This document shows, one piece after another, positions 2,705-50,047 of a DNA stretch of 64,000 bases; position 1 is the first letter of the stretch; each line of letters starts with the position of its first letter. The position numbers and the translations under genes are program-made. Under the pieces are notes generated by a model that was not told the origin of the DNA, made no database searches, and saw only the letters and a list, made by a program, of their open reading frames with translations. This stretch comes from a virus (lineage: Duplodnaviria; Caudoviricetes), in IMG/VR virus record IMGVR_UViG_3300025018_000093; one strand, written 5' to 3'.

Positions 2705-2757
2705 TTCCGGGTTCGGCGGGGAGGGGCTACTGCCTCTCCCCGCGAGAGGGGGAGTCC

Positions 2758-3399: not shown

Positions 3400-3407
3400 G
3401 ACCCAAT

Positions 3408-4688
3408 ATGGCAAAGAAAACCACAACCGAGAACACCAAGCCGGGGAGTGCCGCTGAGAGGACTCTGCGTGCTATCGCACAGGTGAGAGGTGATCTCGGA
3501 AAGCAACAGGTACAGCTCAGCCGGAAGCACTTGAAGGCTGTCTGGCCGTACATCTCCCCTGGTAACGTCAAGCTCGAATACATTCTGGGCGGAGCTTTCG
3601 ACGCCAAGGGTATGAACTCTTGCCCCGGGTATCCCCGAGGGCGTATCACGAACATCTACGGGAAGGAGCATTGCGGGAAAACGAGTCTATGCCTGCATGC
3701 TGCTGCGGAGACCTGCGCTCGTGGCGGGTGCGTGTGCTACATCGACTATGAGCATGTGCTGGATATCCGGTACGCCGCCAAGTTGGGTGTCCCTGTACAC
3801 GACCCCTCCAAGTTTCTCCTGTTTCAGCCAGAGACTCTGGAGCAGGGTATCGGGTTGGTCTGCATGGCCGCCACCAACAAGATGGATTTGGTTGTGCTCG
3901 ACTCTGTGGGAGCTGCCGTCCCGAAGTCCGCTTTCGAGGTTTCCATCGAGGAGATGGTCAAAGCAGAGAACAAGGCCCTGGGTCTTCAGGCTCGTGTCTG
4001 GTCGAGTGCGATTCCGATGATCCTGCACTACCTGAACTCGGGTGGCACCGCGATGTTGGCCGTTGCTCAGCAGCGTGACAACATTAGCGCGAAAGGAAGC
4101 ACGGTGGTCGGGGGTAATGCCTGGAAGTACTACTCGGCGGTTCGCATTGAGATGCGACAAATCAGCCAGATCAAGGGAAGTCGTTACAATCCGATGACGC
4201 ACAAGATGGATTCAGAGGCGATTCTCGGGTCCCTGGTATCCATCAAGGTTAAGAAGGCGAAGCTTTCGGGTACCTCCAACTATGAGGCCGTCATAGAGTG
4301 CCTCCCGGATGTAGGGTTTGATCCCTTCCGCGTCTGCGTAGACCTGGCCGTCGCGCATGGCATCGTCAAGAAGGCAGGGTCTTGGTACTCTTGGGAGCAT
4401 GCCAAGCATGGTGAGATCAAGCAACAGGGCCTACAGGGTTTCATCACGGCTCTGAGGGGTATCCCGGGGATACAGGAGGAGTTGGACACGGTCATTCGAC
4501 CCTTCCTGCGGTCCCGGGACGTGTCTCCCAGTAGCGAGGATGAGGAGCCGGACTATCACGATGAGGAGGGTGCCTTCGTGGAGGGTGCCCTGGGTGAAGA
4601 GGACTTGGATGAGGAGGAGGTTCTTTCCCGGATCGGTGACATCACGGAAGGGAAGTTCTCGATTCCCTCCGAGGATGAGGAGGATTGA
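3408..4688 (+). CDS. recA: RecA/UvsX recombinase with acidic tail
   Basis: ITNIYGKEHCGKT (Walker A), YIDYEH, QPETLEQG, VVLDSVGA (Walker B), GGNAWKYYSAVRIE. Confidence 0.95.
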   Translation: MAKKTTTENTKPGSAAERTLRAIAQVRGDLGKQQVQLSRKHLKAVWPYISPGNVKLEYILGGAFDAKGMNSCPGYPRGRITNIYGKEHCGKTSLCLHAAAETCARGGCVCYIDYEHVLDIRYAAKLGVPVHDPSKFLLFQPETLEQGIGLVCMAATNKMDLVVLDSVGAAVPKSAFEVSIEEMVKAENKALGLQARVWSSAIPMILHYLNSGGTAMLAVAQQRDNISAKGSTVVGGNAWKYYSAVRIEMRQISQIKGSRYNPMTHKMDSEAILGSLVSIKVKKAKLSGTSNYEAVIECLPDVGFDPFRVCVDLAVAHGIVKKAGSWYSWEHAKHGEIKQQGLQGFITALRGIPGIQEELDTVIRPFLRSRDVSPSSEDEEPDYHDEEGAFVEGALGEEDLDEEEVLSRIGDITEGKFSIPSEDEED

Positions 4689-37602: not shown

Positions 37603-38037
37603 ATGGCCGTAACCAAAAAAGGTGCCCTCCAGGTGAGCCAGGCTATGGACCGCCTCGCCTCTCTGTTTCAACAGGATCATGCGGTGATGGGTGTCGCCCC
37701 ACGCATCGCAGAGGACTTCGCGATTCGCTTGGACCGAATGTCGGATCTGGTGGAAAAGAGTGCGGGTGTGGTACGGGCAGAGTGGTTTGATAAGGATGTG
37801 GATGGGGACTTCGATCCTCGGGAGGTTGGCAAGGCGACGCCTTCACAGGATGACGATGAGCCCTACGTCCGGGACAACTTCACGCAGCAGGAGTTCAGTG
37901 AGCTGTCCAGCAAGCAGAACACGGGTCAGCTCCCGTATGCGGATGTTCTCCCTGAGCAGGATATGATGGGAAAGCTAGCAAAGGCGGCTGAGGCGCTGGT
38001 TTCCCTGACACAAGAGCTGAAAGCTCGTAACCGTTGA
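37603..38037 (+). CDS. hypothetical head-cluster protein, paralog of the preceding C-terminal domain
   Basis: TKKGA.QV...DRLAS...EKSAG...FDP.E...NFT.QE shared with the 35270 ORF. Confidence 0.7.
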   Translation: MAVTKKGALQVSQAMDRLASLFQQDHAVMGVAPRIAEDFAIRLDRMSDLVEKSAGVVRAEWFDKDVDGDFDPREVGKATPSQDDDEPYVRDNFTQQEFSELSSKQNTGQLPYADVLPEQDMMGKLAKAAEALVSLTQELKARNR

Positions 38038-38045
38038 GGCTCCTA

Positions 38046-38702
38046 ATGCCTATCCGCAAGAGAGCTACATACATCAATCAACAGCAGCGGGCTACCGAGT
38101 TTCAAGTCGGGCAGCCCGTAACGCATTGGGGGCATCCGATTGAGGAATCGGGTCGTGTGACCGCAGTGTGGCCGGCTATTGGTCAGGTTGACGTGCAGTT
38201 CCCTTGGGGCAACGTTCGGGTTCCCGTTGAAGACCTCCAGATCATTGCAGACAGCACTTGGATTGTCACCCCGAAGAATGACAATACCCCAGGCGGAACA
38301 GCTACCCTGGTTTCGGGTGGTCCCTTTACGCTGAAGGATGCTCCCTATGATCCTCTTCCCCTCCCCGTGAAGGTGAAGACGGCTTCCCCTAGTCTGGAAC
38401 GTGTCGTGGTGGCCTACGTCAAGAAGGCTATCTACTGGCAGGAAAAGAATCGGAAGTACAGGGTCAGCCAGGGCGAGCGAGACAGTGGTAGCTTCCATTG
38501 TCCGCGTTGCAAGGAAACGATCCTTCGGGACGCCATCTACAAGCGCGAAGAGGGGCAGAGTGTGCGTCTTCTGGGTTGCCCCTCGTGTCTCTTTCTGGTC
38601 AAGAAGGAAGACTTGCTTGGGGTCGAGTCTTCCGCACCGGATTTGGAAGTTGCTATCCCCCAGGGAAAGAGCGTCATGATTCGCCTACTGCGGGGTGAGT
38701 GA
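38046..38702 (+). CDS. hypothetical protein with SH3-like and Zn-ribbon segments
   Basis: GRVTAVWPAIGQVDVQFP; CPRC...CPSC. Confidence 0.65.
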   Translation: MPIRKRATYINQQQRATEFQVGQPVTHWGHPIEESGRVTAVWPAIGQVDVQFPWGNVRVPVEDLQIIADSTWIVTPKNDNTPGGTATLVSGGPFTLKDAPYDPLPLPVKVKTASPSLERVVVAYVKKAIYWQEKNRKYRVSQGERDSGSFHCPRCKETILRDAIYKREEGQSVRLLGCPSCLFLVKKEDLLGVESSAPDLEVAIPQGKSVMIRLLRGE

Positions 38703-38703
38703 G

Positions 38704-40143
38704 ATGGCATTCCTTCGTTATGCATATGCGCAGGACATCCGCCAAGTCAGCTCCAAGACCTGGAGCAAGATACGAGTTTCGTCCACGACGGCGACTATCA
38801 GTCCCAACCTCCTGGAGCAGGCTAGCGAAATTCTGCACGAGCACTTCGATCCGAATAAGTACCTCCTGTCTCACGCCACTATCGTGGCCAGTGTGGACAC
38901 GTATGATGTTCCTGGGGTTGTCACAGGGAACATCAAGGAGGGCAGTCGAACAATCCAGCGCAAGTTCTCCAACTATCGAATCCTCCCCGAGTGCGATCCT
39001 TGGATCAACAACAACAATGACTCCTGGGAACGTCGTGTTCTGCTCAAGAGCTATGCCACTTTTGTTGGTGGGCACAACTTCGTAGAGCACGTTCAGATTG
39101 AGGAGCAAAGCAAGGGTCGCATCCTGGATGCTTGCGCGAGGGACATTGGGGACTCCGTCTACGTCGACATCCTGATTGCCACGGCGAAGAAGCACAAGTC
39201 CCTGATCAACTCCATCCAGTCTGGGGAGATGGGGACCCTGTCGATGGGGTGCTCTATTGACTTCTCTCAATGCACTAAATGTGGACATGTGGCTGTTGAC
39301 GAAGCCGATATGTGCCCCTGCGTGCGGTATGAGAAGGGCAACTACTTCTATGATGATTCCGGTCGTCGGCACCGCGTAGCCGAACTCTGTGGGCATCACT
39401 CTGTGAATCCCACAGGGGGTGTGCGATTCATCGAAGGATCTTGGGTCGGTGTTCCTGCCTTTGGTGGAGCTGTCTTGCGTACCATCCTCACCCCCGAGGG
39501 TGTCTCCGCAGAGCATTTGAAGCGGGCTCAGGCCCTGCTGATGAATCCTCCGAAGGTGTGGTCTCGTGATGTCCTCCAGGGTATTGCCAAGGCAGCTACC
39601 CTGTTGGCTTCTGCGAAGAAAGCCGCGTTCGACTTTGGAGGCGAAGAGGACGAGGCTGATGCTGACACCGGTGGTGAAACTGGTGGAAGCTCCGATGGTG
39701 GTGGGACTTTGAAGGAGCTGGAGGATGCAGCCTCGAAAGAGGTTGTCCGACGGCTCAAGAAGAAGCTCCAGGATGAAATCAACCCACCGCAACCTGTGGA
39801 CAAGACGAAAGAGTCTATCACGGATGAGGAGCTTAATCGGCAAGCTGCAGCACAACGTCTGTGGGTTGGAAATGTCTATCGAGACACCATCCAGACCATC
39901 ACAAAGATGGCTAGCTCAGACGTAGAGTTGATTAATGGGGTTGCCCAAGTCAACAATTCGTTCGGTGTAGAAGTCCCGGTCGAGTTATACCGGGCAGCGT
40001 TGAGGGTAGGATCGACCACCCGTCACCATGATCCTCGGAAATATCTCCGGGCATGTGGGCAGGTAATGGGTCGGACGCCAACCCTGGGGGAGTCGCGAAC
40101 TCTAGTCCGACTCGGTAACCTGCTCGCTCGCTTGAGCGGCTGA
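38704..40143 (+). CDS. putative prohead (maturation) protease with Zn-finger insert
   Basis: NFVEH...KGRILDA, LSMGC (candidate catalytic Ser), CTKCGH, GVPAF; position portal-protease-scaffold-capsid. Confidence 0.65.
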   Translation: MAFLRYAYAQDIRQVSSKTWSKIRVSSTTATISPNLLEQASEILHEHFDPNKYLLSHATIVASVDTYDVPGVVTGNIKEGSRTIQRKFSNYRILPECDPWINNNNDSWERRVLLKSYATFVGGHNFVEHVQIEEQSKGRILDACARDIGDSVYVDILIATAKKHKSLINSIQSGEMGTLSMGCSIDFSQCTKCGHVAVDEADMCPCVRYEKGNYFYDDSGRRHRVAELCGHHSVNPTGGVRFIEGSWVGVPAFGGAVLRTILTPEGVSAEHLKRAQALLMNPPKVWSRDVLQGIAKAATLLASAKKAAFDFGGEEDEADADTGGETGGSSDGGGTLKELEDAASKEVVRRLKKKLQDEINPPQPVDKTKESITDEELNRQAAAQRLWVGNVYRDTIQTITKMASSDVELINGVAQVNNSFGVEVPVELYRAALRVGSTTRHHDPRKYLRACGQVMGRTPTLGESRTLVRLGNLLARLSG

Positions 40144-40163
40144 CACAAGGGAGGTTTGCATAA

Positions 40164-41750
40164 ATGGGACGCAAACGAATGACCTGGACTCAAAGTAGAC
40201 GTGCTTCGGCGCCACCCGCAATTCCCGGCTATGATGACGCAGGGTACAGACACCCCGCTCACCAGACTCCGGATCCTGACTCGGACCAGTACGAGAACGG
40301 GGACATAAGTTCTTGGGCAGAGGACGTGCATCCGCCGCCCTACCAGAATAGCCGTCACCCCGCTGTCCCTACAGAGTCCGGTGGCTACAACCATCCGGCA
40401 GGCAACCCTGCCAATCTCAAGCAGGCTATGTATCGCAAGGCACATAAGTGCATTCGCATTGCACAGACCCTGCTTGGCCCGAGGGCAACAGTTGCACAGA
40501 TCGAGAACAAGGCGCTTTCGATGTTGGACTGGCCCGAGCGGAAGGTCCAGGCTTCTCTGAAGCACATTGCCTCTTCGCGTCAGGCCGCCTCTTCGCGTCG
40601 CTCTTGCGGTGAGATGGGCATGTACGGCATGTACGGACAGGATGACATGGATCTTCCGAATGCCGGCATGTATGAGGATGACATGGACGACATGGGTCTG
40701 TACGGCATGGATGACGAGTTGGGCATGGATGACGAGTTGGACATGGACGACGAGTTGGGCATGTTTGACGAGGAAGAAGACGAAGGCATGTCTATGCTCG
40801 ATGATGACTTCGATGATGACTTCGAGGAGGACTTCGAGGAGGACTTCGAGGAGGACATGTACGGGATGCTCGATGACTATGAGCAGGGCGATCCCGTCAT
40901 GGGTCCGCAGCGCATGGCTTCGCAAGAGGACAGAATGCTGGCCTCGATGCTTCGCGAAGCTCGCGTCAAGAAGCAGAATCGCTTCGCGGGTCTTGATGCA
41001 ACAGAGAAGCGGATGCTAGCTTCGATGCTTCGTCAGGCTGCTGCGGAAGAGGAAGTGGAAGAGGAAGTGGACGAGGAAGAGGAAGAGGGTGCCAAGAAGA
41101 AGGCTCGCTCTCGGAAGGCCGTCTCCACTCGTCGTGCTCTCACCCGTCGTCGTGCTGCTGAGGACGAAGAAGAGGGTGCTGAGGACGAAGAAGAGGAAGA
41201 GGGAGCTAAGAAGAAGGCTCGCCGCAACCGCGACCTGGATCCGATGGGTCTGATGGACGATCCGATGGACCGTCTGGCCTCCAAGGGAGAGGATGCGGAG
41301 CTTCGTGCCCTTTTTGAGAATGATCTCTTTGCGGCAGCTGCTCGTGTAGCTGCTGGGGAAGAGGACGAGGAAGAGGGTGCTGAGGAGGACGAGGAAGAGG
41401 GTGCCAAGAAGAAGGCTCGCTCTCGTAAGGCCGTCTCCACTCGCCGTAACCCCCTCCGTCGCCGTGCGGCTGACGAAGAGGAAGAAGACGAGGATGAGGA
41501 CGAGGACGAGGATGAGGACGAGGATGAGGAAGAGGAAGAGGAGGGAGCCAAGAAGAAGGCCACCCGCCTCGCTTCCGCACAGCGCCCTCGCCCCCGCAAG
41601 CCCGCTCGCAGTGGGTCGCCTCGCCGTCTCGGAAACATCCATACGGCTTCCTCCGGTGGCGAGCTCAACGAACTGTCGCAGCTCTGGGCTTCCGCTCCCG
41701 ATATCAGTGAGACCTTCGGGATCACGGAGACGAACCTCGACGTGGAGTGA
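40164..41750 (+). CDS. putative scaffolding protein, very acidic and repeat-rich
   Basis: Between protease and capsid genes; poly-E/D tracts alternating with KKKAR/RRRAA blocks. Confidence 0.6.
   Translation: MGRKRMTWTQSRRASAPPAIPGYDDAGYRHPAHQTPDPDSDQYENGDISSWAEDVHPPPYQNSRHPAVPTESGGYNHPAGNPANLKQAMYRKAHKCIRIAQTLLGPRATVAQIENKALSMLDWPERKVQASLKHIASSRQAASSRRSCGEMGMYGMYGQDDMDLPNAGMYEDDMDDMGLYGMDDELGMDDELDMDDELGMFDEEEDEGMSMLDDDFDDDFEEDFEEDFEEDMYGMLDDYEQGDPVMGPQRMASQEDRMLASMLREARVKKQNRFAGLDATEKRMLASMLRQAAAEEEVEEEVDEEEEEGAKKKARSRKAVSTRRALTRRRAAEDEEEGAEDEEEEEGAKKKARRNRDLDPMGLMDDPMDRLASKGEDAELRALFENDLFAAAARVAAGEEDEEEGAEEDEEEGAKKKARSRKAVSTRRNPLRRRAADEEEEDEDEDEDEDEDEDEEEEEEGAKKKATRLASAQRPRPRKPARSGSPRRLGNIHTASSGGELNELSQLWASAPDISETFGITETNLDVE
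40707..40856 (+). repeat. coding tandem repeats (MDDELG x3; DFEE x3)
   Basis: 18-bp unit x3 from 40707; (GACTTCGAGGAG)3GAC at 40818-40856. Confidence 0.9.
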
Positions 41751-41759
41751 GACTACGGC

Positions 41760-41933
41760 ATGCTCAAGCTCAGTTTTAGATCCAAGCGGTTTGCGCCCAC
41801 GCACACCATCTACTTTGAAGATGAATGGAACCAGTACGAGATGCAGGTTCAAGTTGACGAAGTAGATGGCATGGCCTGGGATGAGGACGGTGAGGCGGTA
41901 GCTGAGCGAAAGCGTCTGGGAGCCCCTTGGTAA
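41760..41933 (+). CDS. small hypothetical protein (57 aa, not in the ORF track)
   Basis: MLKLSFRSKRFAPTHTIYFEDEWNQYEMQVQVDEVDGMAWDEDGEAVAERKRLGAPW, read manually. Confidence 0.45.
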   Translation: MLKLSFRSKRFAPTHTIYFEDEWNQYEMQVQVDEVDGMAWDEDGEAVAERKRLGAPW

Positions 41934-42028
41934 ATCTTGGATGACAAGCTAAGGGTTGATCCCAACTATACTGTGCGAAAGGTGAAGCCCCTTTCCTGAT
42001 TCGACTTACACCCCGATGAGCCAAGTTG

Positions 42029-42065
42029 ACCGCCGTAGTTCTTCTGAACTGCGGCGGTTTTTTTT
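42029..42065 (+). terminator. Rho-independent terminator
   Basis: ACCGCCGTAGTTC-ttct-GAACTGCGGCGGT followed by a T run. Confidence 0.85.
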
Positions 42066-42188
42066 CAATAGCCGTTCGATACCTCCACCTTATCTGTGGA
42101 AGGAGAGCATGGTGCTCTCAATCTTAGATGGGGAGGACTAGTAGTGGTCACTTCTCATAACCCGCACCTCTGAACAGGGAGAATCGAT

Positions 42189-42872
42189 ATGACAGACAAG
42201 ATTCTTGGAGAGGCGTCGGGAGGTTGGACAGAGTCTTCGTCGGCATTGCGTCTTCTTCAACCCGGTATCCGAAACAGTTTGGATGTCCTGGTCGATGATG
42301 CGTTCACACAGACGAATCCGCCCAACGTCCGGACGGCGGGAACAGTCAGCACACAAGTCAACACTCGGATGTTTGGTGTGCCAGGCGGTTCCATTGCTTT
42401 TGTGCGACCCGACGCTCTTGGCGAAGGGTTCGTGGGCGGAAACGTGGAGGGTCTCGACGACGCCAGTCTGGAGACTTTCGTTCGTCCGCTGGGTGTGTTC
42501 ATCAACAACGCGAACGGAAACGCATACGAGAACCTCCCTGGCCAGGCCAGTGGGAAGGGTCCGTATATGTCTTCGCAGGGCGTCTACGGGAACGCACTTT
42601 TCGAGACACAGATCCTGGACGGTGATGCGATCACCGGGTTCGCTACCGGGGACACCATCCCCTACGTGGCGGGCGTGGAACTGATCGCAAGCCGCAACGG
42701 GTATCTGATGCCCCGGGATGCCATCGACGGTGGTGGTACCGTCCGATCTTTGGACGTCGCCGGTTGTGCCGCTGAGGTTGAGCATGGTCGCAGTGCTTCG
42801 ACGCTGATTGCCATCCTCAAGGTGCCTGCGGATTCCAACATCAACGAACTGATTTACGATCAGCGAATCTGA
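42189..42872 (+). CDS. putative head decoration/capsid-associated protein
   Basis: Immediately upstream of the capsid gene; SD GGGAGA; G/A/V/T-rich beta-type composition. Confidence 0.55.
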   Translation: MTDKILGEASGGWTESSSALRLLQPGIRNSLDVLVDDAFTQTNPPNVRTAGTVSTQVNTRMFGVPGGSIAFVRPDALGEGFVGGNVEGLDDASLETFVRPLGVFINNANGNAYENLPGQASGKGPYMSSQGVYGNALFETQILDGDAITGFATGDTIPYVAGVELIASRNGYLMPRDAIDGGGTVRSLDVAGCAAEVEHGRSASTLIAILKVPADSNINELIYDQRI

Positions 42873-42886
42873 GGGAGGAATCAGAC

Positions 42887-43774
42887 ATGGCCACATCAGG
42901 ACGGAACATTAGTGCCAAGCAGAAGCGTGAGATCATTGCTCGCTACCTGTCGACCCAGAATGGTCGGCACAAGCTGGCTGCCAGTCTCACCCAGCCGCTT
43001 CGCCTTCGCCGCGACTACTCGGCGGTCGGTCGTAAGACCTTCCTCGTGGAGCAGTTGCCGGATGGGGCTCTCCCCATCTATGACAAAGACCCCGATGTCA
43101 CTGCCTTCGTGATCGGTGAAGAGGGTGAGAACATTGTCGCGATGGTGAAGAGCCGCCGCGTGCTGTTCCCGCTGTTCGAGATCGCCTCGAACCCGGAAAT
43201 CCCCCTGACCCAGATCAAGGAGCGTCGGTACGACCTCATCGAGCGTTCGCAGGATCTCGCGCGTGCCGAGATTCAGGCTGCGGAAGACTCTCGCGTCTTC
43301 TCCATCCTGGACTCCATCGCCGTCTCCGGCTTCGATTCGGTTCCTGGTCAGACCAACCCCGACATCCCGGTTGTCGCACCCCTCAACGGTGCTGTGCTGG
43401 CTGACGCTTTCGCATCCATCGAGCGCCACGACCTTCGCGTCGCCCGTATGTACATGAACGCCGTCGACTACGCCGACATCCGCAAGTTCGGTCGTGACAT
43501 CCTCGACACCGAGACGCAGCAGAGCTTGCTCCGTACCGGCCTCATGGGGACGCTGTGGGGAGCCCAGCTCATCACCAGCCGTCTCGTGCCCGCTGGGACA
43601 GTGTACTGCTGCTGTGACCCGGAGATGTTCGGTAGGATTCCAGTACGCACTGAGCTTACCGTTCTCTCTGCCGACGATCCGAAGGCTCGCACCATCGGTT
43701 TCTCGGTCTTCGAGAACATCGGTATCGGCGCGTACAACCCGCGCGGTCTCGTGCGCTTGAGCATCAGCCGCTAA
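42887..43774 (+). CDS. major capsid protein, compact HK97/encapsulin-like fold
   Basis: SD GGGAGG; strongly C-ending codons; LAASLTQPLRLRRDYSAVGRK, LPDGALPIYDKD, C-terminal IGAYNPRG; terminator follows. Confidence 0.85.
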   Translation: MATSGRNISAKQKREIIARYLSTQNGRHKLAASLTQPLRLRRDYSAVGRKTFLVEQLPDGALPIYDKDPDVTAFVIGEEGENIVAMVKSRRVLFPLFEIASNPEIPLTQIKERRYDLIERSQDLARAEIQAAEDSRVFSILDSIAVSGFDSVPGQTNPDIPVVAPLNGAVLADAFASIERHDLRVARMYMNAVDYADIRKFGRDILDTETQQSLLRTGLMGTLWGAQLITSRLVPAGTVYCCCDPEMFGRIPVRTELTVLSADDPKARTIGFSVFENIGIGAYNPRGLVRLSISR

Positions 43775-43803
43775 GCCAATTTCCGGCTATCCTCGCTCAT
43801 CTG

Positions 43804-43837
43804 AACCCCTGGGGCTTTGGCCTCGGGGGTTTTTTTG
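43804..43837 (+). terminator. Rho-independent terminator after the capsid gene
   Basis: AACCCCTGGGGC-tttg-GCCTCGGGGGTT followed by a T run. Confidence 0.85.
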
Positions 43838-43902
43838 TATCTCCACTCAGAGGTACGAAACCGCTTGATCTGCCCTTTGGTATGAGGTACAGTTAGTTTC
43901 CG

Positions 43903-46470
43903 ATGCATTGCGTCCACACCATGGAGAGTGCTATGGGAAGCTTGTCTTCGAGGGTCACAAAGGAAAGTCTGGAGAGACTTCACGCGGAGTGTACGGACAG
44001 GGAGGTGGCAGCCTTGTACGGGGTCACGGATGTGGCCGTGAGTCGCCTTCGGTACAGGTGGGGAATAACGACGCTCTCCCAGCGGGAACGCCGGGAGGTG
44101 CTGCGGGGGGCTGAAGGGTTATCTTTGGACACCCTGACACCCGCGAAGTTGGTGGACCTGTACACACAGATGGGGGACTCCCAGATTGGTGCCCTTTACG
44201 GTGTGTCAGGCACGACGATTCGGAAACTCCGGCAGGATTGGGGTATACTGAGTCTCTCCAAACGCGAGAGGTCTACCTCAGTAGGAGACTTCACGGAGGA
44301 CCAGAAGCAAATCTGCATGGGAACCCTGCTTGGGGATGGTCACCTCATGAAGCATGGAGTCTTGAAGATATCCCATGCTTGGCACCAGCTTTCGTACACG
44401 AGATGGTTGCAACGAGCGTTGCAACCGCATGCTCGCCCTCTCTTCTATGAAGAGAAACAGATGGATACAGGGACTCTGTGTTTTGCCTTCGGGTTTCGTA
44501 CCCAGGAGCATGTTTGGTTGCGGACCCTCCGAGGGATTTTTTACCCAGAGGGGAGGCGTATCTTTCCGCAGTCTGTTCTGGAGGAGTTAGGGCCTTTGGG
44601 CTTAGCGGTCTGGTACTTCGATGATGGGAACCTTGCGAGTGGCCTTCCCTCTTTTGCACTGGGGGAGATCAGCGACCAGGAAGCGGAAGCGGTATGTCAG
44701 AAGGTGCACCAGAGGTTTGGACTCGACACTTATGTCCGACCACAGTCCACGGAGACCTGCAAAATTATGGGGGTGCGCGGGGGAAGTGCTGACATCTTCT
44801 TTCACCTGGTGCGCTCTTATGCCACCCCAGATATGCTCCACAAGCTCCCCCAGAAACACTGGACCACACACGCTCCGCTTCACATCCACAGCACGCCCGA
44901 GAAAGGGATTCCGCAGGAGTTGGGAGAGCGGTGCTGTGCGTGGGACTCCCTAAGTGCACAGTCTAGGGAGACGCTCCTGGGGGACCTTGTGGCGTACTGG
45001 CACCAGCGGGGTTTCCCACATTACGTGCCCCGCCCCGAGGAACTGGAAACGCTGCTGTCCCTATCTGCGGAGCAGGTTCTCCGCAAGGATGGTCTTTCCT
45101 GTCGTCCACACAATGTGGGGCAGGCAACTTGCCAGGCGTTCGCAACGCACATCTGGGAGGCTCGTTCTTGGGGATCTAAGCAGAGTCCTCGGGAGATATT
45201 TGAGGATGCAGACGCTCTTGGTAAAGCAATGTGCGCTCGCCTCACGGCCCGCAGTAAGACGCAAAAAGGACGTGTGGCACCCATGTCCGCAGCGGAGGTT
45301 CGTGTCAGTATCCGTTCCTGGAAGCTCTCCGGGGTGTACAATTTCAGACCGAGCCTAGCCAAGATACTAGTAGACTTGTACGGCACTCCTGGAGGGACTG
45401 TGTATGATCCCTGTGCTGGATATGGGGGAAGGATGCTCGGTGTGGTGCTTTCCCAGCATGTGATGCGTTACGTAGGGTGCGACCCCCATCGGGAGGGGAT
45501 CGCGCGTCTCGGTTCTTTCGCAGGTTGGTTGGAGGAGTACCTTCCAGGAGTGTCTTCCAGGGTGTCTTTGCATGTCACTCCTGCAGAGGACTTCTATCCA
45601 CCCCCCTGTGATCTTGTGATCACGTCTCCTCCCTACTGGTGTCGCGAGCAGTATGAAGACTCCCCACAGCAGTCCGGGGTACGGTACCCCACATACGCGG
45701 CATGGCTGGAAGGATTTTGGTCACGTGTACTTGGAGCTTCCTATCAAGCTCTCCGTCCGGGTGGGTGGATGCTCCTGAATGTGGATGACTTCACCATTGG
45801 GCAAACCTCATATCCTCTGGTGAAGGACACTTTGGATCTATGCCGAGACCTCGGTCTCCATCTGGAAAAGACTTTCCGCTATGAGATGCCGAGGTTTGCG
45901 CAGCGGAGAAATCATGAGTCTATTCTGGCTTTGGTCAAACACGGAGATGCCCGTGAAGTGACCCCGGCTGCCAAAATGACACTCTCTCGTTGTACCCAAT
46001 GTGGGTGCGTGTTACCTGCGAGGGAGCTTCGGGAAAAACGGTGCTCCGACTGCCGAAAGCCAAAGACACATATTGTGGTCTGTGAGGGCTGTGGGCAAAA
46101 GCTGGAGGCTCATCGGGGAAACCGCCGCTTCTGTTCTGAGAACTGTAGGGCTCGGCACCACCGAAAGAAAAAGTCCGAGGGGAGGGGTGCTATCGTGCGT
46201 TCCTTCCTCTGCATCTCTTGCGGGAAGACTTGGGAGACGGAAGCTCAGGGAAGTTTCAAATGGTGCCCTGTGTGCCGGGAGAGGGAGGCAATCCAAAAAA
46301 GGACGCAGACGTGCGCGTATCACCATTGCGGGAGAGAGTTCGTTGACACCACCCCGAAAAACTCGATGAGTTACTGTCATCCAGAGCATCGTCGTCGCGA
46401 GAAGTTGTTTCGCTCTGGTAAGGCGAAGGATTTGAGCTACTTCCGAAGTCCAGATCCCGTGCTGGGATAA
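43903..46470 (+). CDS. fusion: 2xHTH + LAGLIDADG_2 endonuclease + N4C/N6A DNA methyltransferase + Zn ribbons
   Basis: EVAALYGV..VSRLR / QIGALYGV..IRKLR; GTLLGDG and AVWYFDDG; NFRP, VYDPCAGYGG, ITSPPY; at least 4 CxxC pairs plus CSENC. Start may be 43921 or 43933. Confidence 0.85.
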   Translation: MHCVHTMESAMGSLSSRVTKESLERLHAECTDREVAALYGVTDVAVSRLRYRWGITTLSQRERREVLRGAEGLSLDTLTPAKLVDLYTQMGDSQIGALYGVSGTTIRKLRQDWGILSLSKRERSTSVGDFTEDQKQICMGTLLGDGHLMKHGVLKISHAWHQLSYTRWLQRALQPHARPLFYEEKQMDTGTLCFAFGFRTQEHVWLRTLRGIFYPEGRRIFPQSVLEELGPLGLAVWYFDDGNLASGLPSFALGEISDQEAEAVCQKVHQRFGLDTYVRPQSTETCKIMGVRGGSADIFFHLVRSYATPDMLHKLPQKHWTTHAPLHIHSTPEKGIPQELGERCCAWDSLSAQSRETLLGDLVAYWHQRGFPHYVPRPEELETLLSLSAEQVLRKDGLSCRPHNVGQATCQAFATHIWEARSWGSKQSPREIFEDADALGKAMCARLTARSKTQKGRVAPMSAAEVRVSIRSWKLSGVYNFRPSLAKILVDLYGTPGGTVYDPCAGYGGRMLGVVLSQHVMRYVGCDPHREGIARLGSFAGWLEEYLPGVSSRVSLHVTPAEDFYPPPCDLVITSPPYWCREQYEDSPQQSGVRYPTYAAWLEGFWSRVLGASYQALRPGGWMLLNVDDFTIGQTSYPLVKDTLDLCRDLGLHLEKTFRYEMPRFAQRRNHESILALVKHGDAREVTPAAKMTLSRCTQCGCVLPARELREKRCSDCRKPKTHIVVCEGCGQKLEAHRGNRRFCSENCRARHHRKKKSEGRGAIVRSFLCISCGKTWETEAQGSFKWCPVCREREAIQKRTQTCAYHHCGREFVDTTPKNSMSYCHPEHRRREKLFRSGKAKDLSYFRSPDPVLG

Positions 46471-46476
46471 GTAGGA

Positions 46477-46693
46477 GGAGTGCGGCGGAAACTCTGCGAA
46501 GTTTCTACCGCACTCCGGGGAGACAATCTGAAAGTGCGGCGGAAACTTTCAGGGTCTCCTGCTACCAGGTACCGTCTGAGACGGTAACCTTGGTTCAATC
46601 TACCGGCGGTCTCGCGTGAAAGTCAAGCTGAAGTGAAAGGCGGTCACTTCTTTCCGACTTTGCGTATAGTCGGTGGAGAGCACCCGTCGGTGC
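46477..46693. ncRNA. hairpin-dense non-coding element (candidate sRNA or cis element)
   Basis: Six stem-loops and a 15-bp direct repeat AGTGCGGCGGAAACT (46479, 46533). Confidence 0.45.
46597..46626 (-). promoter_or_regulatory. sigma70-like promoter on the minus strand
   Basis: TTGACT (46626-46621)-N18-TAGATT (46602-46597). Confidence 0.35.
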
Positions 46694-46714
46694 GTTACCG
46701 CGTAGGAGTCCCGT

Positions 46715-46843
46715 ATGGTGAACCGTCCAGACAATGAGCCGATCCGATGTGTTGATTGCGAGCAGCTCCTGGAGCCAGGTGGGGACAATGGGCGTGGGCA
46801 GTGTTACGATTGCGCTGCCGAGGGTGCGGAAGACGAGGAGTAA
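46715..46843 (+). CDS. 42-aa zinc-ribbon microprotein (not in the ORF track)
   Basis: SD AGGAG; MVNRPDNEPIRCVDCEQLLEPGGDNGRGQCYDCAAEGAEDEE. Confidence 0.6.
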   Translation: MVNRPDNEPIRCVDCEQLLEPGGDNGRGQCYDCAAEGAEDEE

Positions 46844-46891
46844 TACCCTTCTTCGATCCAAGGCTGAGCGATTACGGCGTGAGAGTTGAGT

Positions 46892-47215
46892 ATGTCGAAG
46901 ATTCCATATAACTGGCACCGTCTGTACGGGGGAAACCGGGTGAAGTCCCCACCGGAGAACGGCGGGCATGTCCTGATGGTGTTCAAGACCACTTCCGTCT
47001 ACATCCCTGGGGATGAGCGAAGCCGGACGCATCCGGGGCATGGGTACCCTGAGCGCACGGAGATGCATGACACATTTGAGATTTACCTTTTTGAGGACAA
47101 GGAGAAGTGGGCCGCCGCCTTGACGGAACTTTACAAAGAGGACCCCTATCGTGTAGACGTGTGGGCGTTCACGGCAGGTCTTCCGGCCAAGCCCAAAATT
47201 CGATGGGAGCTGTGA
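46892..47215 (+). CDS. hypothetical protein
   Basis: About 107-aa ORF with TGATG coupling to the next gene. Confidence 0.55.
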   Translation: MSKIPYNWHRLYGGNRVKSPPENGGHVLMVFKTTSVYIPGDERSRTHPGHGYPERTEMHDTFEIYLFEDKEKWAAALTELYKEDPYRVDVWAFTAGLPAKPKIRWEL

Positions 47216-48114
47216 TGGGCAAGATACGAGGAGAGCGAGGGGTGTGTACAGCTGAGCAAGAGGACATTTTCCCGGAGGTGGATTACAGCGATGCCAAGTC
47301 TGTCATTGCTGCTCTCCAGCAGGATCGGAGTACCGTGAGCATGCAGGAGCTGCAACGTCCAGACCGTGCTCTGGTACTGGAGGAAGTCGCCAAGTGGGTG
47401 CGGTCCCAGCCTGAGATGTCGGAGCTGAAGCAGGGCATTCTGGAGGTGTGTTTGATCCTGCACATCCCGGATGCAGCCGAGGATGGGCTTATCCCGGTGG
47501 ACCCGGATGCAGCTGCCGTGATCTTCTCTATCCTGCTAGAGGAGAAGGCAGGAGTTTCCTCTCTGCTCTATCCCTTTCTGGTTATGCTCCAGAATGAGGA
47601 TCGTGGGGGACTGTTCCAGGAAACGGACTTGCGGCGCCGTCTCCCAGAGAAGATGGGAGTCCCACTAGAGAGTATCGAAGGGGAGCTGAAAGCAGCCCTC
47701 AAGTTGCTCCGTGACAGAGGGGTTCTTGTATGGTACGCGGATGGGGGCATGTACCTGGACCGCCACTATATTCAACCCTCTCGTGAGGAGTTGAAGGCTG
47801 CGGGGTACTTCTCTCTCCCCACTGTGCTAGGGGAGACTCCCTCGGAGTTGTATGACGTGGAGATCCCCAAAGGTCTTACTCCCTTCCAGAATCTTGAAAA
47901 AGGGGGTGTTATGCCGTACGGCGTGAATATGGGTGCAGCCGAGAGAAAGAGTTCCTCAGACAAGGCGCTTCTCGTCTACATCGAGAAGCTCGGATCGGAG
48001 GTGTGGGTACCCAAGTCCGTCATCCACGATGGCTCCGAGGTGTACGAGGGTGGGGATGGAGAAGGGGACTTGGTCGTCAAATCCTGGTGGGCTGAAAAGG
48101 AAGGTTGGGAATGA
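47215..48114 (+). CDS. hypothetical protein with small C-terminal beta domain (KALLV...WVPKS)
   Basis: ATG overlapping the previous stop; ATGA overlap with def. Confidence 0.55.
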   Translation: MGKIRGERGVCTAEQEDIFPEVDYSDAKSVIAALQQDRSTVSMQELQRPDRALVLEEVAKWVRSQPEMSELKQGILEVCLILHIPDAAEDGLIPVDPDAAAVIFSILLEEKAGVSSLLYPFLVMLQNEDRGGLFQETDLRRRLPEKMGVPLESIEGELKAALKLLRDRGVLVWYADGGMYLDRHYIQPSREELKAAGYFSLPTVLGETPSELYDVEIPKGLTPFQNLEKGGVMPYGVNMGAAERKSSSDKALLVYIEKLGSEVWVPKSVIHDGSEVYEGGDGEGDLVVKSWWAEKEGWE

Positions 48115-48758
48115 ACGCAGAGCCTAAAGTGCAGGACATCACTAACACAGTCGAGGACTTTCTCCAGAACCTGGAAGAGGGTGTGGCAGAAGAGAGGGGG
48201 GAGGGAGAGAAGTACTCGGGTCAGGTCCGAGAGGTCATTCTTTTCGGGAACCCTCTTCTCCGGGAGCCCAGTGCACCCGTGCCTGAGGTGACGGAGGACG
48301 TTCAAAAATTGGCAGCGGACCTCACGGCCACAATGTTCGACTACGGCGGCGCGGGTATTGCGGCACCACAGATCGGGAGAAATCTGCGTGTGGTGGTTCT
48401 GAGGGACAACCCAAGAGAGGAACTCGATGACGTGATCTTGGTGCGAGCGATGGTCAACCCTGTGATCCTTTCCAGGGAGGGGTCCTTCTCTATGCTGGAG
48501 GGCTGCCTCTCAATCCCTGGTGCTCGGGGAACTGTGGAGCGTTCCGCCACGGTGGTCGTTTCATACCTGGACCTACAGGGGGAGGCGCAGGAGAAGGAGC
48601 TTTCAGGGTACCAGGCGGCTGCAGTACAACATGAGTTGGACCACCTGGACGGAAAGTTGTTTGTGGACCACCTCAGTGCTTTCCAGAAGAGCCGGGCTCT
48701 GGAGAAGCATCGAAAGGTCATGAAGAAGGCATATCGGCAGGCTAAGAGAAGCTTGTGA
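48111..48758 (+). CDS. def: peptide deformylase
   Basis: GAGIAAPQIG, EGCLSIPG, QHELDHLDG. Confidence 0.97.
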   Translation: MNAEPKVQDITNTVEDFLQNLEEGVAEERGEGEKYSGQVREVILFGNPLLREPSAPVPEVTEDVQKLAADLTATMFDYGGAGIAAPQIGRNLRVVVLRDNPREELDDVILVRAMVNPVILSREGSFSMLEGCLSIPGARGTVERSATVVVSYLDLQGEAQEKELSGYQAAAVQHELDHLDGKLFVDHLSAFQKSRALEKHRKVMKKAYRQAKRSL

Positions 48759-49060
48759 TAGGAAGGGGTATGTGCGAAGAATGCATTGAGGGCGTTGCTC
48801 GTATGGTGGGAGACTTTCTGGAGGACGAGGATGTTCCCCCAGAGTTGGCTTTTTCTGCTCTGCATATGTTGGCGAGAGTGATCGAGCTGCGCACGGGGAT
48901 GTCCTTGCAGGACATGACTGCACTCTTGCACCAGGGTCGAGAGCTTGGGGAGCACGTTTCCGAGAAAATGGGATGCTACCTCCCGCTCAATGAGGAGGAG
49001 AAGCATCGGTCTCTCCTGGTGGAGGCTACCCTGAAGCACTACAACGAGAAGCCAGATTGA
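48755..49060 (+). CDS. hypothetical protein
   Basis: 101-aa ORF overlapping the def stop. Confidence 0.55.
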   Translation: MIGRGMCEECIEGVARMVGDFLEDEDVPPELAFSALHMLARVIELRTGMSLQDMTALLHQGRELGEHVSEKMGCYLPLNEEEKHRSLLVEATLKHYNEKPD

Positions 49061-49147
49061 TGTTGTACAGGGCGAAATATCTCGCGGGTGTGGGCAGTAC
49101 TCGGGTACGGGAACCCGAGCCGAAATCCCACAACCAGCGAGAAGAGC

Positions 49148-49515
49148 ATGAGCAAGAGATCCCAGAGACGACACGAGCTGGCCAAGCGTAAGCTCCGTTG
49201 GATTCGCATCACTTCAAGATGGTGGTACCTTTCTGCAAACGAGGTGTCCGAAGGGGCAGCTCTGAGCTGGGAGGGGAGCCCAACCCCAAATTGGCCCAAC
49301 CAGGCCTTTGCCGTAGCCCTACGGAGGCCACGAACCCCAACTCCCTGTTCGTGCCCCATGTGCGGTATCCCAGACGGTGGTTCAAAACAGTCACCCCTCA
49401 GGAGCGCCGGTCTGCAGACCAGTACCAGTATCAATTGCAGGAGCTGGAGAGAGGCTGCCCGTCAAGGGTACTTCGAGTGAAGGGGGGACAGTGCAAAAAG
49501 ATGATAAGATGGTGA
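49148..49515 (+). pseudogene. small CSCxMCG protein apparently frameshifted near 49367
   Basis: Frame A ends TPTPCSCPMCG; the other frame continues PRRWFKTVTPQERR and stops overlapping the next ATG. Confidence 0.5.
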
Positions 49516-49772
49516 CATACCACATGTATGTTTGTCGGTGCCAGGATGGTAGTCTCTACACGGGCATCGCAAAGGATGTCACAGCTCGCGTGTGTAGACA
49601 CAACTCCGGGAGGGGAGCCAAGTACACTCGGTCGCGCCTCCCCGTGGTGTTGGAATCTTCCTGGGAGTACCCAGATCGCAGCTCTGCGCTAAAAGCGGAG
49701 TACGCCTTCAAGCAACTTAGCCGGGAACGTAAACTCGCATGCCTCGCGGGGCGGACAAGCCTTCCATTTTGA
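49509..49772 (+). CDS. GIY-YIG nuclease (YhbQ/UPF0213-like)
   Basis: YHMYVCRCQDGSLYTGIAKDVTARVCRHNSGRGAKYTR...ALKAE. Confidence 0.92.
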   Translation: MVTYHMYVCRCQDGSLYTGIAKDVTARVCRHNSGRGAKYTRSRLPVVLESSWEYPDRSSALKAEYAFKQLSRERKLACLAGRTSLPF

Positions 49773-49819
49773 CTTGCCTATCCTTTGACCTTTCCAGGAA
49801 CTCTGCAAAGGAGCGGAAA

Positions 49820-50047
49820 ATGACCAAGCGCTCGGTACGCGCAACGTTCTTTGGGAAAGGTTGGGGCAAAATTAAGTACCTTGATCACACTCTTCTTGGC
49901 TGCAACGTCCATTACCTTGGTAGTGTGTGGAGGGTCACTGTCGCGTACCAGGGGGCTACGCCTAAGTTGGAGCCCTGGCTGGTGCTACGAAGGGGTATGA
50001 CCGAGGTCACCGTGAAGCCCCATGAAGTTGATCTAGCGTTTGACTAG
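49820..50047 (+). CDS. hypothetical protein
   Basis: SD AAGGAG; 75 aa. Confidence 0.55.
   Translation: MTKRSVRATFFGKGWGKIKYLDHTLLGCNVHYLGSVWRVTVAYQGATPKLEPWLVLRRGMTEVTVKPHEVDLAFD

What the first reader, a model, noticed from the sequence alone, without database searches (positions are those of the whole stretch)
43903..46470. HTH-LAGLIDADG-methyltransferase-zinc-ribbon fusion
One 855-aa ORF joins two HTH repeats, a two-motif LAGLIDADG_2 nuclease, an amino-methyltransferase (motif I DPCAGYGG before motif IV TSPPY) and several Zn ribbons. I found no intein splice motifs around the nuclease. It could be a self-contained restriction-modification-like or homing unit that cuts rival phage DNA and marks its own, or a methylase captured as homing cargo. 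It sits right after the capsid terminator and before a structured element.
Basis: partly seen in the sequence, partly recalled or inferred. Interest (0 to 1): 0.68.

Follow-up and report, generated by a model that had tools for sequence, protein, structure and literature searches.

The report
Mobile LAGLIDADG nuclease fused to methyltransferase
A huge uncultured aquifer phage encodes, right after its capsid gene, one real protein joining an I-SceI-type homing nuclease, a phage-type DNA methyltransferase and zinc fingers; it belongs to a widespread, undescribed family that comes and goes at this spot like a selfish mobile gene.

Summary
ORF 43903-46470 is intact; the real start is probably ATG 43933, giving 845 aa. 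It encodes two duplicated HTH units, a two-motif I-SceI-like LAGLIDADG domain, a helical "MID" domain, a compact amino-methyltransferase and four Cys-rich zinc modules.

It is not a frameshift artefact. More than 60 full-length homologues (40-61% identity) exist, and contigs from three other runs show no indels. No domain looks dead: the catalytic Asp residues are kept in 105 and 106 of 107 fused relatives, and the DPCAGYGGR and TSPPYW motifs are invariant in the 22-sequence alignment.

The methyltransferase is a circular permutant of the beta-class N4/N6 DNA methylases (PF01555).

Anchoring on the very conserved capsid gene shows that the slot just downstream is a homing-endonuclease hot spot. 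Relatives carry there the full fusion, nuclease-methylase without zinc fingers, methylase without nuclease, a free HTH-LAGLIDADG gene, or nothing. The forms are scattered over the capsid tree, and one pair gives a clean 2.5-kb occupied site against a 44-bp empty site.

Best reading (0.6): a free-standing homing endonuclease permanently fused to a DNA methylase, moving as one cassette. Whether methylation shields the carrier from its own nuclease is untested.

This scan found the same family before on other DNA. I found no paper describing it.

The parts
42887..43774 (+). Major capsid protein gene. It is the conserved anchor upstream of the variable slot.
   Evidence: phrog_2522 E 3.7e-53. 492 relatives in IMG/VR; the best 80 are 79-88% identical in protein.
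43803..43842 (+). Intrinsic terminator of the capsid gene: 13-bp stem, 8 GC pairs, then a T-run.
   Evidence: sequence. An equivalent hairpin is kept in L037 and L065, and the cassette begins just after it.
43903..46470 (+). Fusion gene, 855 aa as the longest ORF. The probable start is ATG 43933 (845 aa), preceded by GGAG at 43923-43926.
   Evidence: No indels in contigs of four runs.
43936..44277 (+). Two duplicated helix-turn-helix units (residues about 12-125), the DNA-binding arm typical of free-standing homing endonucleases.
   Evidence: Internal repeat 41% identical, E 2e-13. Helices in the AF2 model. HTH_23 found in 14 of 66 relatives.
44284..44856 (+). Monomeric two-motif LAGLIDADG nuclease domain (residues 128-318). 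Catalytic Asp145 is in LLGDG (44335-44337) and Asp240/241 in WYFDDG (44620-44625).
   Evidence: PF03161 63.2 bits. I-SceI alignment places both motifs on I-SceI's. Foldseek I-SceI/I-WcaI E 4e-10. Asp kept in 105/107 and 106/107 fused relatives.
44905..45327 (+). Helical MID domain (residues 335-475). It always accompanies the methyltransferase, also in stand-alone proteins of about 340 aa. Conserved GFP, GQxxC..H.W and YNFRP motifs.
   Evidence: Domain model pLDDT 94.5. Atlas stand-alone viral cluster TM 0.84 over residues 1-346 of the domain model.
45328..45972 (+). Class I SAM-dependent amino-methyltransferase (residues 476-690). Motif I DPCAGYGGR is at 45406-45432 and motif IV TSPPYW at 45622-45639. 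It is a circular permutant of beta-class DNA N4/N6 methylases.
   Evidence: PF01555 30.6 bits. Profile against PDB: TTHA0409 (2zie) E 1.5e-10 and a DNA N4-cytosine MTase (8s9n) E 2.9e-5, both matched in swapped order. Motifs invariant.
45985..46467 (+). Zinc-finger tail (residues 695-855) with four Cys clusters, including one FCS-like and one CGNR-like finger, and a conserved end FRxPDPVL. This is the most conserved part between distant forms.
   Evidence: Invariant Cys pairs. zf-CGNR E 0.0018. FCS finger 2l8e E 0.029. 55% identity to the N-terminal copy in the permuted protein P0070.
46477..46593 (+). Three stable hairpins directly after the stop codon. Function unknown, and not conserved in the nearest relative.
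   Evidence: MFE -63.6 kcal/mol, z -6.27. No similarity downstream of the gene in L007.

Best explanation
The gene is a free-standing homing endonuclease gene permanently fused, in one reading frame, to a phage-type DNA amino-methyltransferase and a zinc-finger DNA-binding tail. The whole gene behaves as one mobile cassette.

Inferred mechanism:
1. The two HTH units and the LAGLIDADG saddle recognise a long DNA site in or next to the end of the highly conserved capsid gene of related phages that lack the cassette.
2. The two-Asp active site makes a double-strand break.
3. Recombinational repair from the carrier genome during co-infection copies the cassette into the slot just behind the capsid terminator.
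4. The MID plus methyltransferase core, which also exists as a stand-alone viral enzyme, methylates exocyclic amino groups of DNA. The SPPY motif suggests N4-cytosine. The zinc fingers are an accessory DNA-binding module.
5. I take the methylase mainly as a useful passenger, giving protection of phage DNA from restriction. This would keep the selfish nuclease gene from being purged.

Shown here: the architecture, conservation of both active sites, single old origin and co-inheritance of the two enzymes, the fixed genomic slot, patchy distribution, and occupied versus empty sites.

Inferred: cleavage, the target site, the methylated base, and the benefit to the phage.
For: Real and conserved: 62 full-length homologues at 40-61% identity on contigs up to 528 kb, and a 43% identical copy in the 485-kb phage LR745208.1.

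Active sites: D145, D240/D241, DPCAGYGGR and TSPPYW are invariant in 22 sequences. The Asp residues are kept in 105/107 and 106/107 fused LAGLIDADG domains.

I-SceI-like by sequence and fold.

The methyltransferase is related to DNA N4/N6 methylases in permuted order. Its nearest predicted-structure clusters are 100% viral 'cytosine-N4 DNA methyltransferase' and 'LAGLIDADG/DNA methylase' clusters.

Hot spot: among 50 capsid-anchored loci with enough flank, the slot holds the full fusion (4), nuclease-methylase fusions (3), methylase without nuclease (3-4), a free HTH-LAGLIDADG gene (about 20) or nothing related (about 20).

The full form is scattered on the capsid-gene tree: 7 changes for 8 rows, shuffled mean 7.6, strongly supported branches force at least 5.

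Occupied versus empty sites: L037 positions 1273-3762 (2.49 kb with the fusion gene) stand against 44 bp in its sister L065. A 2.76-kb methylase-only insert in L009 stands against 389 bp in L008. Both begin right after the capsid terminator.

The same slot behind a phrog_2522 capsid gene is used by distant fused members in L002, L004, L090 and L092.

One durable unit: LAGLIDADG and methyltransferase pairwise identities correlate at r 0.91 (0 of 300 permutations reached it). Domain order is identical in 103 of 103 proteins, and the spacing has a median of 148 aa.

Literature: homing endonuclease genes cluster next to capsid and terminase genes (PMC10448857). Orphan methylases and homing endonucleases are the two most variable phage gene types (PMC7468147).
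Against: No cleavage, target site or methylation has been measured.

For the 855-aa form itself I found no clean empty-site partner. Its nearest relative, L007, also carries the gene.

The slot is a generally variable region, so recombination without nuclease help could also produce the patchiness.

A mere passenger would not need a translational fusion kept over such deep divergence. In the one search run, no free-standing copy of this nuclease lineage turned up. Both points fit functional coupling better than simple cargo.

The best sequential structural neighbours of the methyltransferase core are tRNA m2G enzymes: TrmN Z 18.4, aTrm11 17.8, Trm14 17.5. An RNA substrate is therefore not excluded.
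Confidence: 0.6

Rival explanations
1. Cut-and-protect unit: a single-chain, restriction-modification-like enzyme built on a LAGLIDADG nuclease. The fused methylase modifies a base inside or near the nuclease's own recognition site. The carrier genome, which keeps the site, is immune, while unmethylated DNA of rival phages or the host is cut.
For: Both active sites are under selection, and the two enzymes are co-inherited in fixed order and spacing.

There is an asymmetry like that of restriction-modification systems. Methylase-only forms nest among fused ones on the methyltransferase tree (at least 10 forced changes). Nuclease-only genes form a few separate clades on the LAGLIDADG tree (4 changes).

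A search for stand-alone relatives of residues 1-330 found only a frameshifted copy of a full fusion, P0217/L093, plus fragments of 30% identity or less.

The order nuclease, helical connector, methylase, DNA-binding tail parallels Type IIG/IIL enzymes such as MmeI (my recollection).
Against: Free HTH-LAGLIDADG genes without any methylase thrive in the same slot.

Insertion into the slot replaces the empty-site sequence, which would already destroy a target lying there and give immunity without methylation.

Methylase-only forms show that the methylase has a role of its own.

The stand-alone search is word-based and limited by length, and many 'methylase-only' proteins may be contig fragments.
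Confidence: 0.25
2. Domesticated protein: the HTH and LAGLIDADG part serves only as a sequence-specific DNA-binding module. It directs the methylase to defined sites, or acts as a regulator as WhiA does, and no longer drives mobility.
For: The gene sits in a fixed position behind the capsid gene in many huge phages. LAGLIDADG folds are known to be reused as DNA binders (WhiA, maturases; my recollection).
Against: Reused LAGLIDADG domains usually lose the catalytic acids (my recollection). Here they are kept in about 98% of 107 fused domains. The distribution is patchy and uncoupled from the capsid tree, with discrete insertion/deletion alleles. The stand-alone MID-methylase works without this module.
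Confidence: 0.08
3. The methyltransferase acts on RNA (m2G or m6A type) or on protein rather than DNA, so the fusion links a DNA nuclease to an unrelated modifying enzyme.
For: The best sequential structural matches are TrmN, aTrm11 and Trm14 (Z 17.5-18.4). One source names some relatives 'RsmD'.
Against: Sequence profiles point to DNA N4/N6 methylases: PF01555 above its cut-off, up to 71.8 bits in P0065, 2zie at 1.5e-10 and a DNA N4C methylase at 2.9e-5. Structural aligners that require the same chain order cannot rank the permuted beta-class DNA enzymes fairly. No THUMP or other RNA-binding domain was found. All fused partners (HTH, LAGLIDADG, ParB_N, HNH, zinc fingers) are DNA-directed.
Confidence: 0.05
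4. Assembly or frameshift artefact that joins separate genes.
For: One relative, L093, is split by a 1-nt frame change between the nuclease and the MID domain.
Against: An 8.9-kb contig at depth 44, plus low-depth contigs of three further runs, cover the gene without any indel. There are 62 full-length homologues. The AF2 model is confident across all domains: pLDDT 84.9, pTM 0.70.
Confidence: 0.01

Closest known systems
I-SceI and I-WcaI (monomeric two-motif LAGLIDADG homing endonucleases, Pfam PF03161)
   Same: Same fold and the same two catalytic-Asp motifs in one chain.
   Different: Those enzymes are intron-encoded in mitochondria and are nuclease only. Here the gene is free-standing in a phage, preceded by two HTH units and followed by a methyltransferase and zinc fingers.
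Free-standing phage homing endonuclease genes (T4 Seg and Mob; ICP1 'HEG islands' next to capsid and terminase genes, PMC10448857)
   Same: An intergenic gene next to an essential, conserved gene. Architecture of DNA-binding arm plus nuclease. Patchy distribution among relatives.
   Different: Those use GIY-YIG, HNH or T5orf172 nucleases and carry no second enzyme. This family is LAGLIDADG-based and permanently fused to a methylase.
Phage orphan DNA methyltransferases of the beta class (PF01555; for example TTHA0409/2zie, and N4-cytosine methylases with SPPY)
   Same: Shared motifs IV-VI and X/I by sequence. Viral stand-alone relatives of about 340 aa exist. They are variable, mobile-looking genes in phage genomes (PMC7468147).
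   Different: The motif order is circularly permuted (I before IV). A family-specific helical MID domain is present. The enzyme is fused to a nuclease.
Type IIG/IIL single-chain restriction-modification enzymes (for example MmeI; recalled, not tested here)
   Same: Nuclease, connector, amino-methyltransferase and DNA-binding region in one polypeptide.
   Different: Those carry a non-specific PD-(D/E)XK cleavage domain guided by the methylase's recognition domain. I know of no LAGLIDADG nuclease in a restriction enzyme. Here the nuclease has its own long-site recognition surface.
[quoted passage not shown]
   Same: A homing nuclease physically joined to a phage methylase gene, with neither intron nor intein.
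   Different: There the HNH is read in another frame and interrupts the methylase. Here both lie in one frame, side by side, and are co-inherited over deep divergence.
ParB_N-methyltransferase and HNH-methyltransferase fusions of the same methylase family
   Same: The same MID and methylase core joined to another DNA-directed module: an Atlas cluster in which 38% of members carry ParB_N, and P0072 with NUMOD4 plus HNH_3.
   Different: The partner domain and its position differ.

Membership tests
LAGLIDADG homing endonucleases (PF03161, I-SceI type) | Profile match above the curated threshold | tested here: met
   63.2 bits against a cut-off of 25, residues 136-293. phrog_11023 E 2.2e-20.
LAGLIDADG homing endonucleases (PF03161, I-SceI type) | Two LAGLIDADG helices in one chain, each ending in a catalytic acidic residue | tested here: met
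   LLGD145G and WYFD240D241G align with the I-SceI motifs. They are invariant in 22 homologues and kept in 105/107 and 106/107 fused relatives.
LAGLIDADG homing endonucleases (PF03161, I-SceI type) | Fold of the solved enzymes | tested here: met
   Foldseek hits 1r7m, 5a0m and 6x1j at E 4e-10 to 2e-9, TM by target 0.73-0.76. pLDDT is about 90 over the domain.
LAGLIDADG homing endonucleases (PF03161, I-SceI type) | Site-specific double-strand cleavage of a long target | not testable with these tools
   Needs an enzyme assay.
Mobile (homing) genetic element | Patchy presence among close relatives, with discrete occupied and empty sites | tested here: met
   Shown for the family: L037 against L065 (2.49 kb against 44 bp) and L009 against L008. 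The forms are scattered on the capsid tree. For the 855-aa form itself no clean empty-site partner was found.
Intein- or intron-borne endonuclease | Hint/splicing blocks around the nuclease, or a group I/II intron RNA | tested here: not met
   No Hint or intein family in Pfam at E up to 1. No intron family in Rfam over 42000-49000 at E up to 1.
Beta-class N4/N6 DNA methyltransferases (PF01555) | Profile match above the curated threshold | tested here: met
   30.6 bits against a cut-off of 26.7, but only profile positions 2-110 of 221. 48 of 66 relatives match, and P0065 reaches 71.8 bits.
Beta-class N4/N6 DNA methyltransferases (PF01555) | Motif order IV-VIII, recognition domain, then X-I-III | tested here: not met
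   Motif I (502-510) precedes motif IV (574-579). Both halves match 2zie and 8s9n in swapped order. The enzyme is a circular permutant, a relative but not a standard member.
Beta-class N4/N6 DNA methyltransferases (PF01555) | SAM-binding glycine loop and (S/D/N)PPY catalytic motif conserved | tested here: met
   D502 and G506 are invariant, and G508, G509, R510, S575, P576, P577 and Y578 are kept in at least 90% of 125 relatives.
Beta-class N4/N6 DNA methyltransferases (PF01555) | Methylation of DNA at N4-cytosine or N6-adenine | not testable with these tools
   Needs a methylome or an assay. SPPY is typical of N4C enzymes, which is my recollection only.
Type IIG/IIC single-chain restriction-modification enzymes | Nuclease and methyltransferase in one polypeptide | tested here: met
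Type IIG/IIC single-chain restriction-modification enzymes | Cleavage blocked by the enzyme's own methylation of the recognition site | not testable with these tools
   Needs cleavage assays on methylated and unmethylated target.
THUMP-type tRNA m2G methyltransferases (Trm11, TrmN, Trm14) | Similar Rossmann core with a (D/N)PPY-type motif | tested here: inconclusive
   Z 17.5-18.4, rmsd 2.2-2.9 over 175-180 residues, against a generic methyltransferase background of Z 14-16.
THUMP-type tRNA m2G methyltransferases (Trm11, TrmN, Trm14) | N-terminal THUMP RNA-binding domain | tested here: not met
   No THUMP match in Pfam at E up to 1. The N-terminal partner is the helical MID domain.

The most novel reading that the evidence does not exclude
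The family is a natural single-chain 'meganuclease restriction-modification' unit. The fused methylase marks a base within the long LAGLIDADG target, so the carrier phage keeps an intact but shielded site. Unmethylated genomes of co-infecting relatives are cut and converted. This would be the first LAGLIDADG-based restriction-modification-like system, and the first homing endonuclease whose self-immunity comes from methylation rather than from target disruption.
Probability: 0.25. Interest if true: 0.8.

Novelty: new variant of a known kind. Interest (0 to 1): 0.55.

Why it matters
Homing endonucleases and orphan methylases are the two most mobile gene types of phages, but they are normally separate genes. 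Here they form one protein family, conserved over deep divergence with both active sites intact. The family has more than 35 clusters at 50% identity among the 66 long relatives scanned, and it is tied to one slot behind the capsid gene of huge phages.

If the methylase is cargo, this is a clear case of a selfish nuclease that secures its stay by carrying a useful gene. If the methylase shields the nuclease's own target, it is a new kind of restriction-modification logic with 20-bp specificity.

Either way it offers natural meganuclease-methylase pairs for study, and a marker of gene flow among uncultured huge phages.

Tried and rejected
- **Frameshift or assembly artefact:** rejected.
- **Intein or intron:** no Hint domain and no Rfam family; only three sub-threshold chance hits.
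- **Zinc region as a degenerate HNH nuclease:** there are weak PHROG 'HNH' hits (phrog_15471 E 0.0038; phrog_1271 in permuted relatives). They cover only the zinc-ribbon part, and no conserved His or Asn is present. Rejected.
- **Capsid codons and target-site immunity (lead e1-5406952):** the window's AGG, CCA and GTA codons at R250, P252 and V253 are rare among relatives (6%, 10%, 6%). However, synonymous sites are saturated everywhere and I saw no pattern that tracks the gene content of the slot. No conclusion.
- **C-terminal FRxPDPVL as a portable tag:** it occurs only in this family.
- **Middle domain of the permuted methylase-only form:** only PHROGs of unknown function (13389, 28936). 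The Atlas feature search scored at most 0.77 with nothing named. Whether it is another nuclease stays open.
- **Context of stand-alone zinc-finger proteins (P0110, P0143):** the contigs are too short.
- **Whole-genome search for paralogues:** no genome is held. There is no paralogue within the window.
- **NCBIfam:** no hit.
- **megablast of 38000-50000 against phage records:** no match.
- **Sequencing runs:** no RNA holder listed.
- **AU test that nuclease-only genes form one clade:** did not finish in time.
- **Foldseek on either model:** gave only generic Rossmann methyltransferases for the methylase part.
Full report
**1. The observation**

The window is part of a huge phage. All genes lie on the + strand and GC content is about 55%. 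The stretch is held in aquifer metagenomes.

ORF 43903-46470 is open for 855 codons. The first ATG has no ribosome-binding site. ATG 43933 is preceded by GGAG at a spacing of 6 nt, and the database copy of the protein has 845 aa (P0002). The real product therefore probably starts at residue 11.

Upstream lies the major capsid gene (42887-43774, phrog_2522, E 3.7e-53). It ends in a 13-bp hairpin and T-run at 43803-43842. Downstream, three hairpins fill 46477-46593 (-63.6 kcal/mol, z -6.3).

**2. Anatomy**

| Part | Residues | Evidence |
|---|---|---|
| Two HTH units | about 12-59 and 74-125 | Evident duplication, 41% identity, E 2e-13 |
| LAGLIDADG_2 | 136-293 | 63.2 bits |
| Helical MID domain | 335-475 | Conserved with the methylase |
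| Methyltransferase | 476-690 | N6_N4_Mtase 570-683, 30.6 bits |
| Zinc-finger tail | 697-829 | Four Cys clusters |

The LAGLIDADG domain aligns over its length with I-SceI. LLGD145G and WYFDD241G fall on I-SceI's two catalytic motifs.

A full-length AlphaFold model built from 22 homologues is confident (pLDDT 84.9, pTM 0.70). Its best solved neighbours are I-SceI and I-WcaI (E 4e-10).

The methyltransferase has motif I (DPCAGYGGR, 502-510), an acidic residue at the ends of strands 2 and 3, and motif IV (TSPPYW, 574-579). The order is therefore I before IV.

A profile of the MID plus methylase region matches the beta-class DNA methylase TTHA0409 (2zie, E 1.5e-10) and a DNA N4-cytosine methyltransferase (8s9n, E 2.9e-5). 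In both cases the two halves match in swapped order. The enzyme is thus a circular permutant of PF01555 enzymes.

The domain model (pLDDT 94.5) lies closest in chain-order-dependent alignment to the tRNA m2G enzymes TrmN, aTrm11 and Trm14 (Z 17.5-18.4, against a generic background of 14-16). This keeps an RNA substrate formally open.

In the ESM Atlas the nearest clusters are all viral:
- a cluster automatically named cytosine-N4 DNA methyltransferase (TM 0.84 over both MID and methylase);
- a 'LAGLIDADG/DNA methylase' cluster;
- a cluster with ParB_N in 38% of members.

The tail includes an FCS-like finger (2l8e, E 0.029) and a CGNR-like finger (E 0.0018). It ends in a family-specific FRxPDPVL. 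I found no catalytic HNH residues in the tail.

**3. Not an artefact, not dead**

Sixty-two proteins of 816-1230 aa match over 96-100% of the length at 40-61% identity, on contigs up to 528 kb. One sits in the published 485-kb phage LR745208.1.

In a 22-sequence alignment, both nuclease motifs, both methylase motifs and the Cys pairs are invariant.

Across all stored relatives, 105 of 107 (motif 1) and 106 of 107 (motif 2) methylase-fused LAGLIDADG domains keep the Asp. The methylase motif residues are kept in at least 90% of 125 sequences.

Contigs of four runs cover the gene with no indel.

**4. Genomic behaviour**

In homologue-bearing contigs, the gene always follows the capsid gene of the same head module (L002, L004). 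More distant fused members do the same (L090, L092).

To avoid sampling only carriers, I anchored on the capsid protein. IMG/VR holds 492 relatives, and the best 80 are 79-88% identical in protein. Their synonymous sites are saturated, so these phages are in fact deeply diverged.

Domain HMMs run on the genes downstream of the capsid gene show five states:

| State of the slot | Loci |
|---|---|
| Full fusion | L007, L042, L046, L056 |
| HTH-LAGLIDADG-HTH-MID-methylase, zinc fingers absent | L015, L037 |
| Same, but the MID profile was not detected and the zinc tail is present | L034 |
| Zinc fingers, unknown domain, MID, methylase; no nuclease | L009, L012, L057, also L014 and P0070/L005 |
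| Free-standing HTH-LAGLIDADG gene of 300-340 aa | about 20 loci |
| Nothing related | about 20 loci |

On a capsid-gene codon tree the full form needs 7 changes for 8 rows. The shuffled mean is 7.6, and strongly supported branches force at least 5. Sister pairs differ in content:
- L037 against L065 (support 100);
- L002 against L017 (support 98);
- L009, L015 and L008 in one tight clade.

Pairwise DNA comparison gives discrete alleles. L037 positions 1273-3762 (the fusion gene plus about 450 bp) stand in place of 44 bp of L065. A 2.76-kb methylase-only insert in L009 stands in place of 389 bp of L008. Each begins just after the capsid terminator.

This is the signature of free-standing homing endonuclease genes, which are known to cluster beside capsid and terminase genes (PMC10448857).

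**5. One old unit**

Among 103 proteins carrying both domains, the LAGLIDADG domain is always N-terminal. The spacing has a median of 148 aa (range 130-265). Pairwise identities of the two domains correlate at r 0.91, reached by 0 of 300 permutations. For pairs below 50% methylase identity the correlation is still r 0.70.

The fusion reaches down to 22% identity (P0071). It accounts for 35 LAGLIDADG_2 matches among 66 long representatives of 50%-identity clusters.

The MID-methylase core is a large viral family, with 3804 hits at E up to 1e-3. It also occurs alone (about 340 aa), with ParB_N, and with NUMOD4 plus HNH.

The zinc module can sit at either end. In P0070 it is N-terminal and 55% identical, while the methylase is 33% identical.

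On the methylase tree the fused state needs at least 10 forced changes, although some 'unfused' rows may be contig fragments. On the LAGLIDADG tree the nuclease-only genes fall into a few separate clades (4 changes).

A search for stand-alone relatives of residues 1-330 found only a frameshifted full fusion (P0217/L093) and fragments of 30% identity or less.

**6. Interpretation**

Best supported (0.6): a free-standing LAGLIDADG homing endonuclease gene permanently fused to a DNA methylase and zinc-finger tail. It homes as one cassette into the slot behind the capsid terminator of related huge phages. I take the methylase mainly as beneficial cargo.

Main rival (0.25): the methylase shields the nuclease's own target, giving restriction-modification-like logic.
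- For it: the durable fusion, and no free-standing copy of this nuclease lineage in the one search run.
- Against it: free LAGLIDADG genes live in the same slot without a methylase. Insertion replaces the empty-site sequence, which already explains immunity.

Minor rivals: a domesticated DNA-targeting module (0.08), an RNA or protein methylase (0.05), and an artefact (0.01).

**7. Novelty**

Four full-text searches found no description of a natural LAGLIDADG-methyltransferase fusion. The nearest concept is the ShiLan element, a hidden HNH inside a phage methylase gene (PMC11855218).

Automatic cluster names already show both domains. This scan has flagged the same family in at least 10 other genomes, with one follow-up reaching the same reading.

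I file it as a new variant of a known kind: a free-standing homing endonuclease gene with a fused second enzyme. The 855-aa form described here adds a second HTH unit and the zinc-finger tail.

Noticed in passing
P0008 and P0023 (homologues of about 1230 aa; alignment A1 columns 1-300): Two family members carry an extra HTH-LAGLIDADG module in front of the normal one. In P0008 its motifs are intact (LLGDGC, WYMDDG). In P0023 they are degenerate (LLGNGY, WFLDRGG). This looks like a second nuclease that invaded the same gene and is decaying in one lineage.
   Followed up: partly
L005 8001-10481 (P0070), also L009, L012, L057: A domain-permuted relative sits in the same slot. The zinc fingers are at the N-terminus, a domain of about 350 aa of unknown function (phrog_13389/28936) replaces the nuclease, and MID plus methylase lie at the C-terminus.
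   Followed up: partly
L090 4001-8124: Two methylase genes stand in tandem behind the capsid gene: a 672-aa LAGLIDADG-methylase, then a 702-aa methylase with zinc-finger hits. A peptide deformylase gene lies further downstream, as in the window.
   Followed up: no
window 43166-43197: Contigs of three runs break or fork inside the capsid gene at one identical stretch of about 30 bp, with two different upstream continuations. This suggests closely related phage variants co-exist in these samples.
   Followed up: no
window 46716-46844 (+): A small ORF of 42 codons with two CxxC pairs (a zinc-ribbon-like mini-protein) lies between the hairpins and the next gene. It has no relative in the fetched loci. 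The overlapping 157-aa minus-strand ORF looks non-coding.
   Followed up: partly
L093 335-2030: A close relative (56% identity) of the fusion is split by a 1-nt frame change between the LAGLIDADG and MID domains. It is either a sequencing error or a fresh pseudogene.
   Followed up: yes
L004 1424-4327 and L005 1962-4799: A head-module gene of about 950 aa upstream of the capsid gene carries Hint/intein and LAGLIDADG_3 hits in relatives. The window's counterpart appears to lack the intein.
   Followed up: no
L001 6931-8000: In LR745208.1 about 1 kb separates the capsid gene from the fusion gene. One frame I tried over it has nine stop codons, and the other frames were not examined. It may be a decayed insert.
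   Followed up: no
window 35270-37558 and 48105-48758: A 2H-phosphoesterase plus topoisomerase IB fusion lies in the head module, and a phage peptide deformylase lies two genes downstream of the fusion gene.
   Followed up: no
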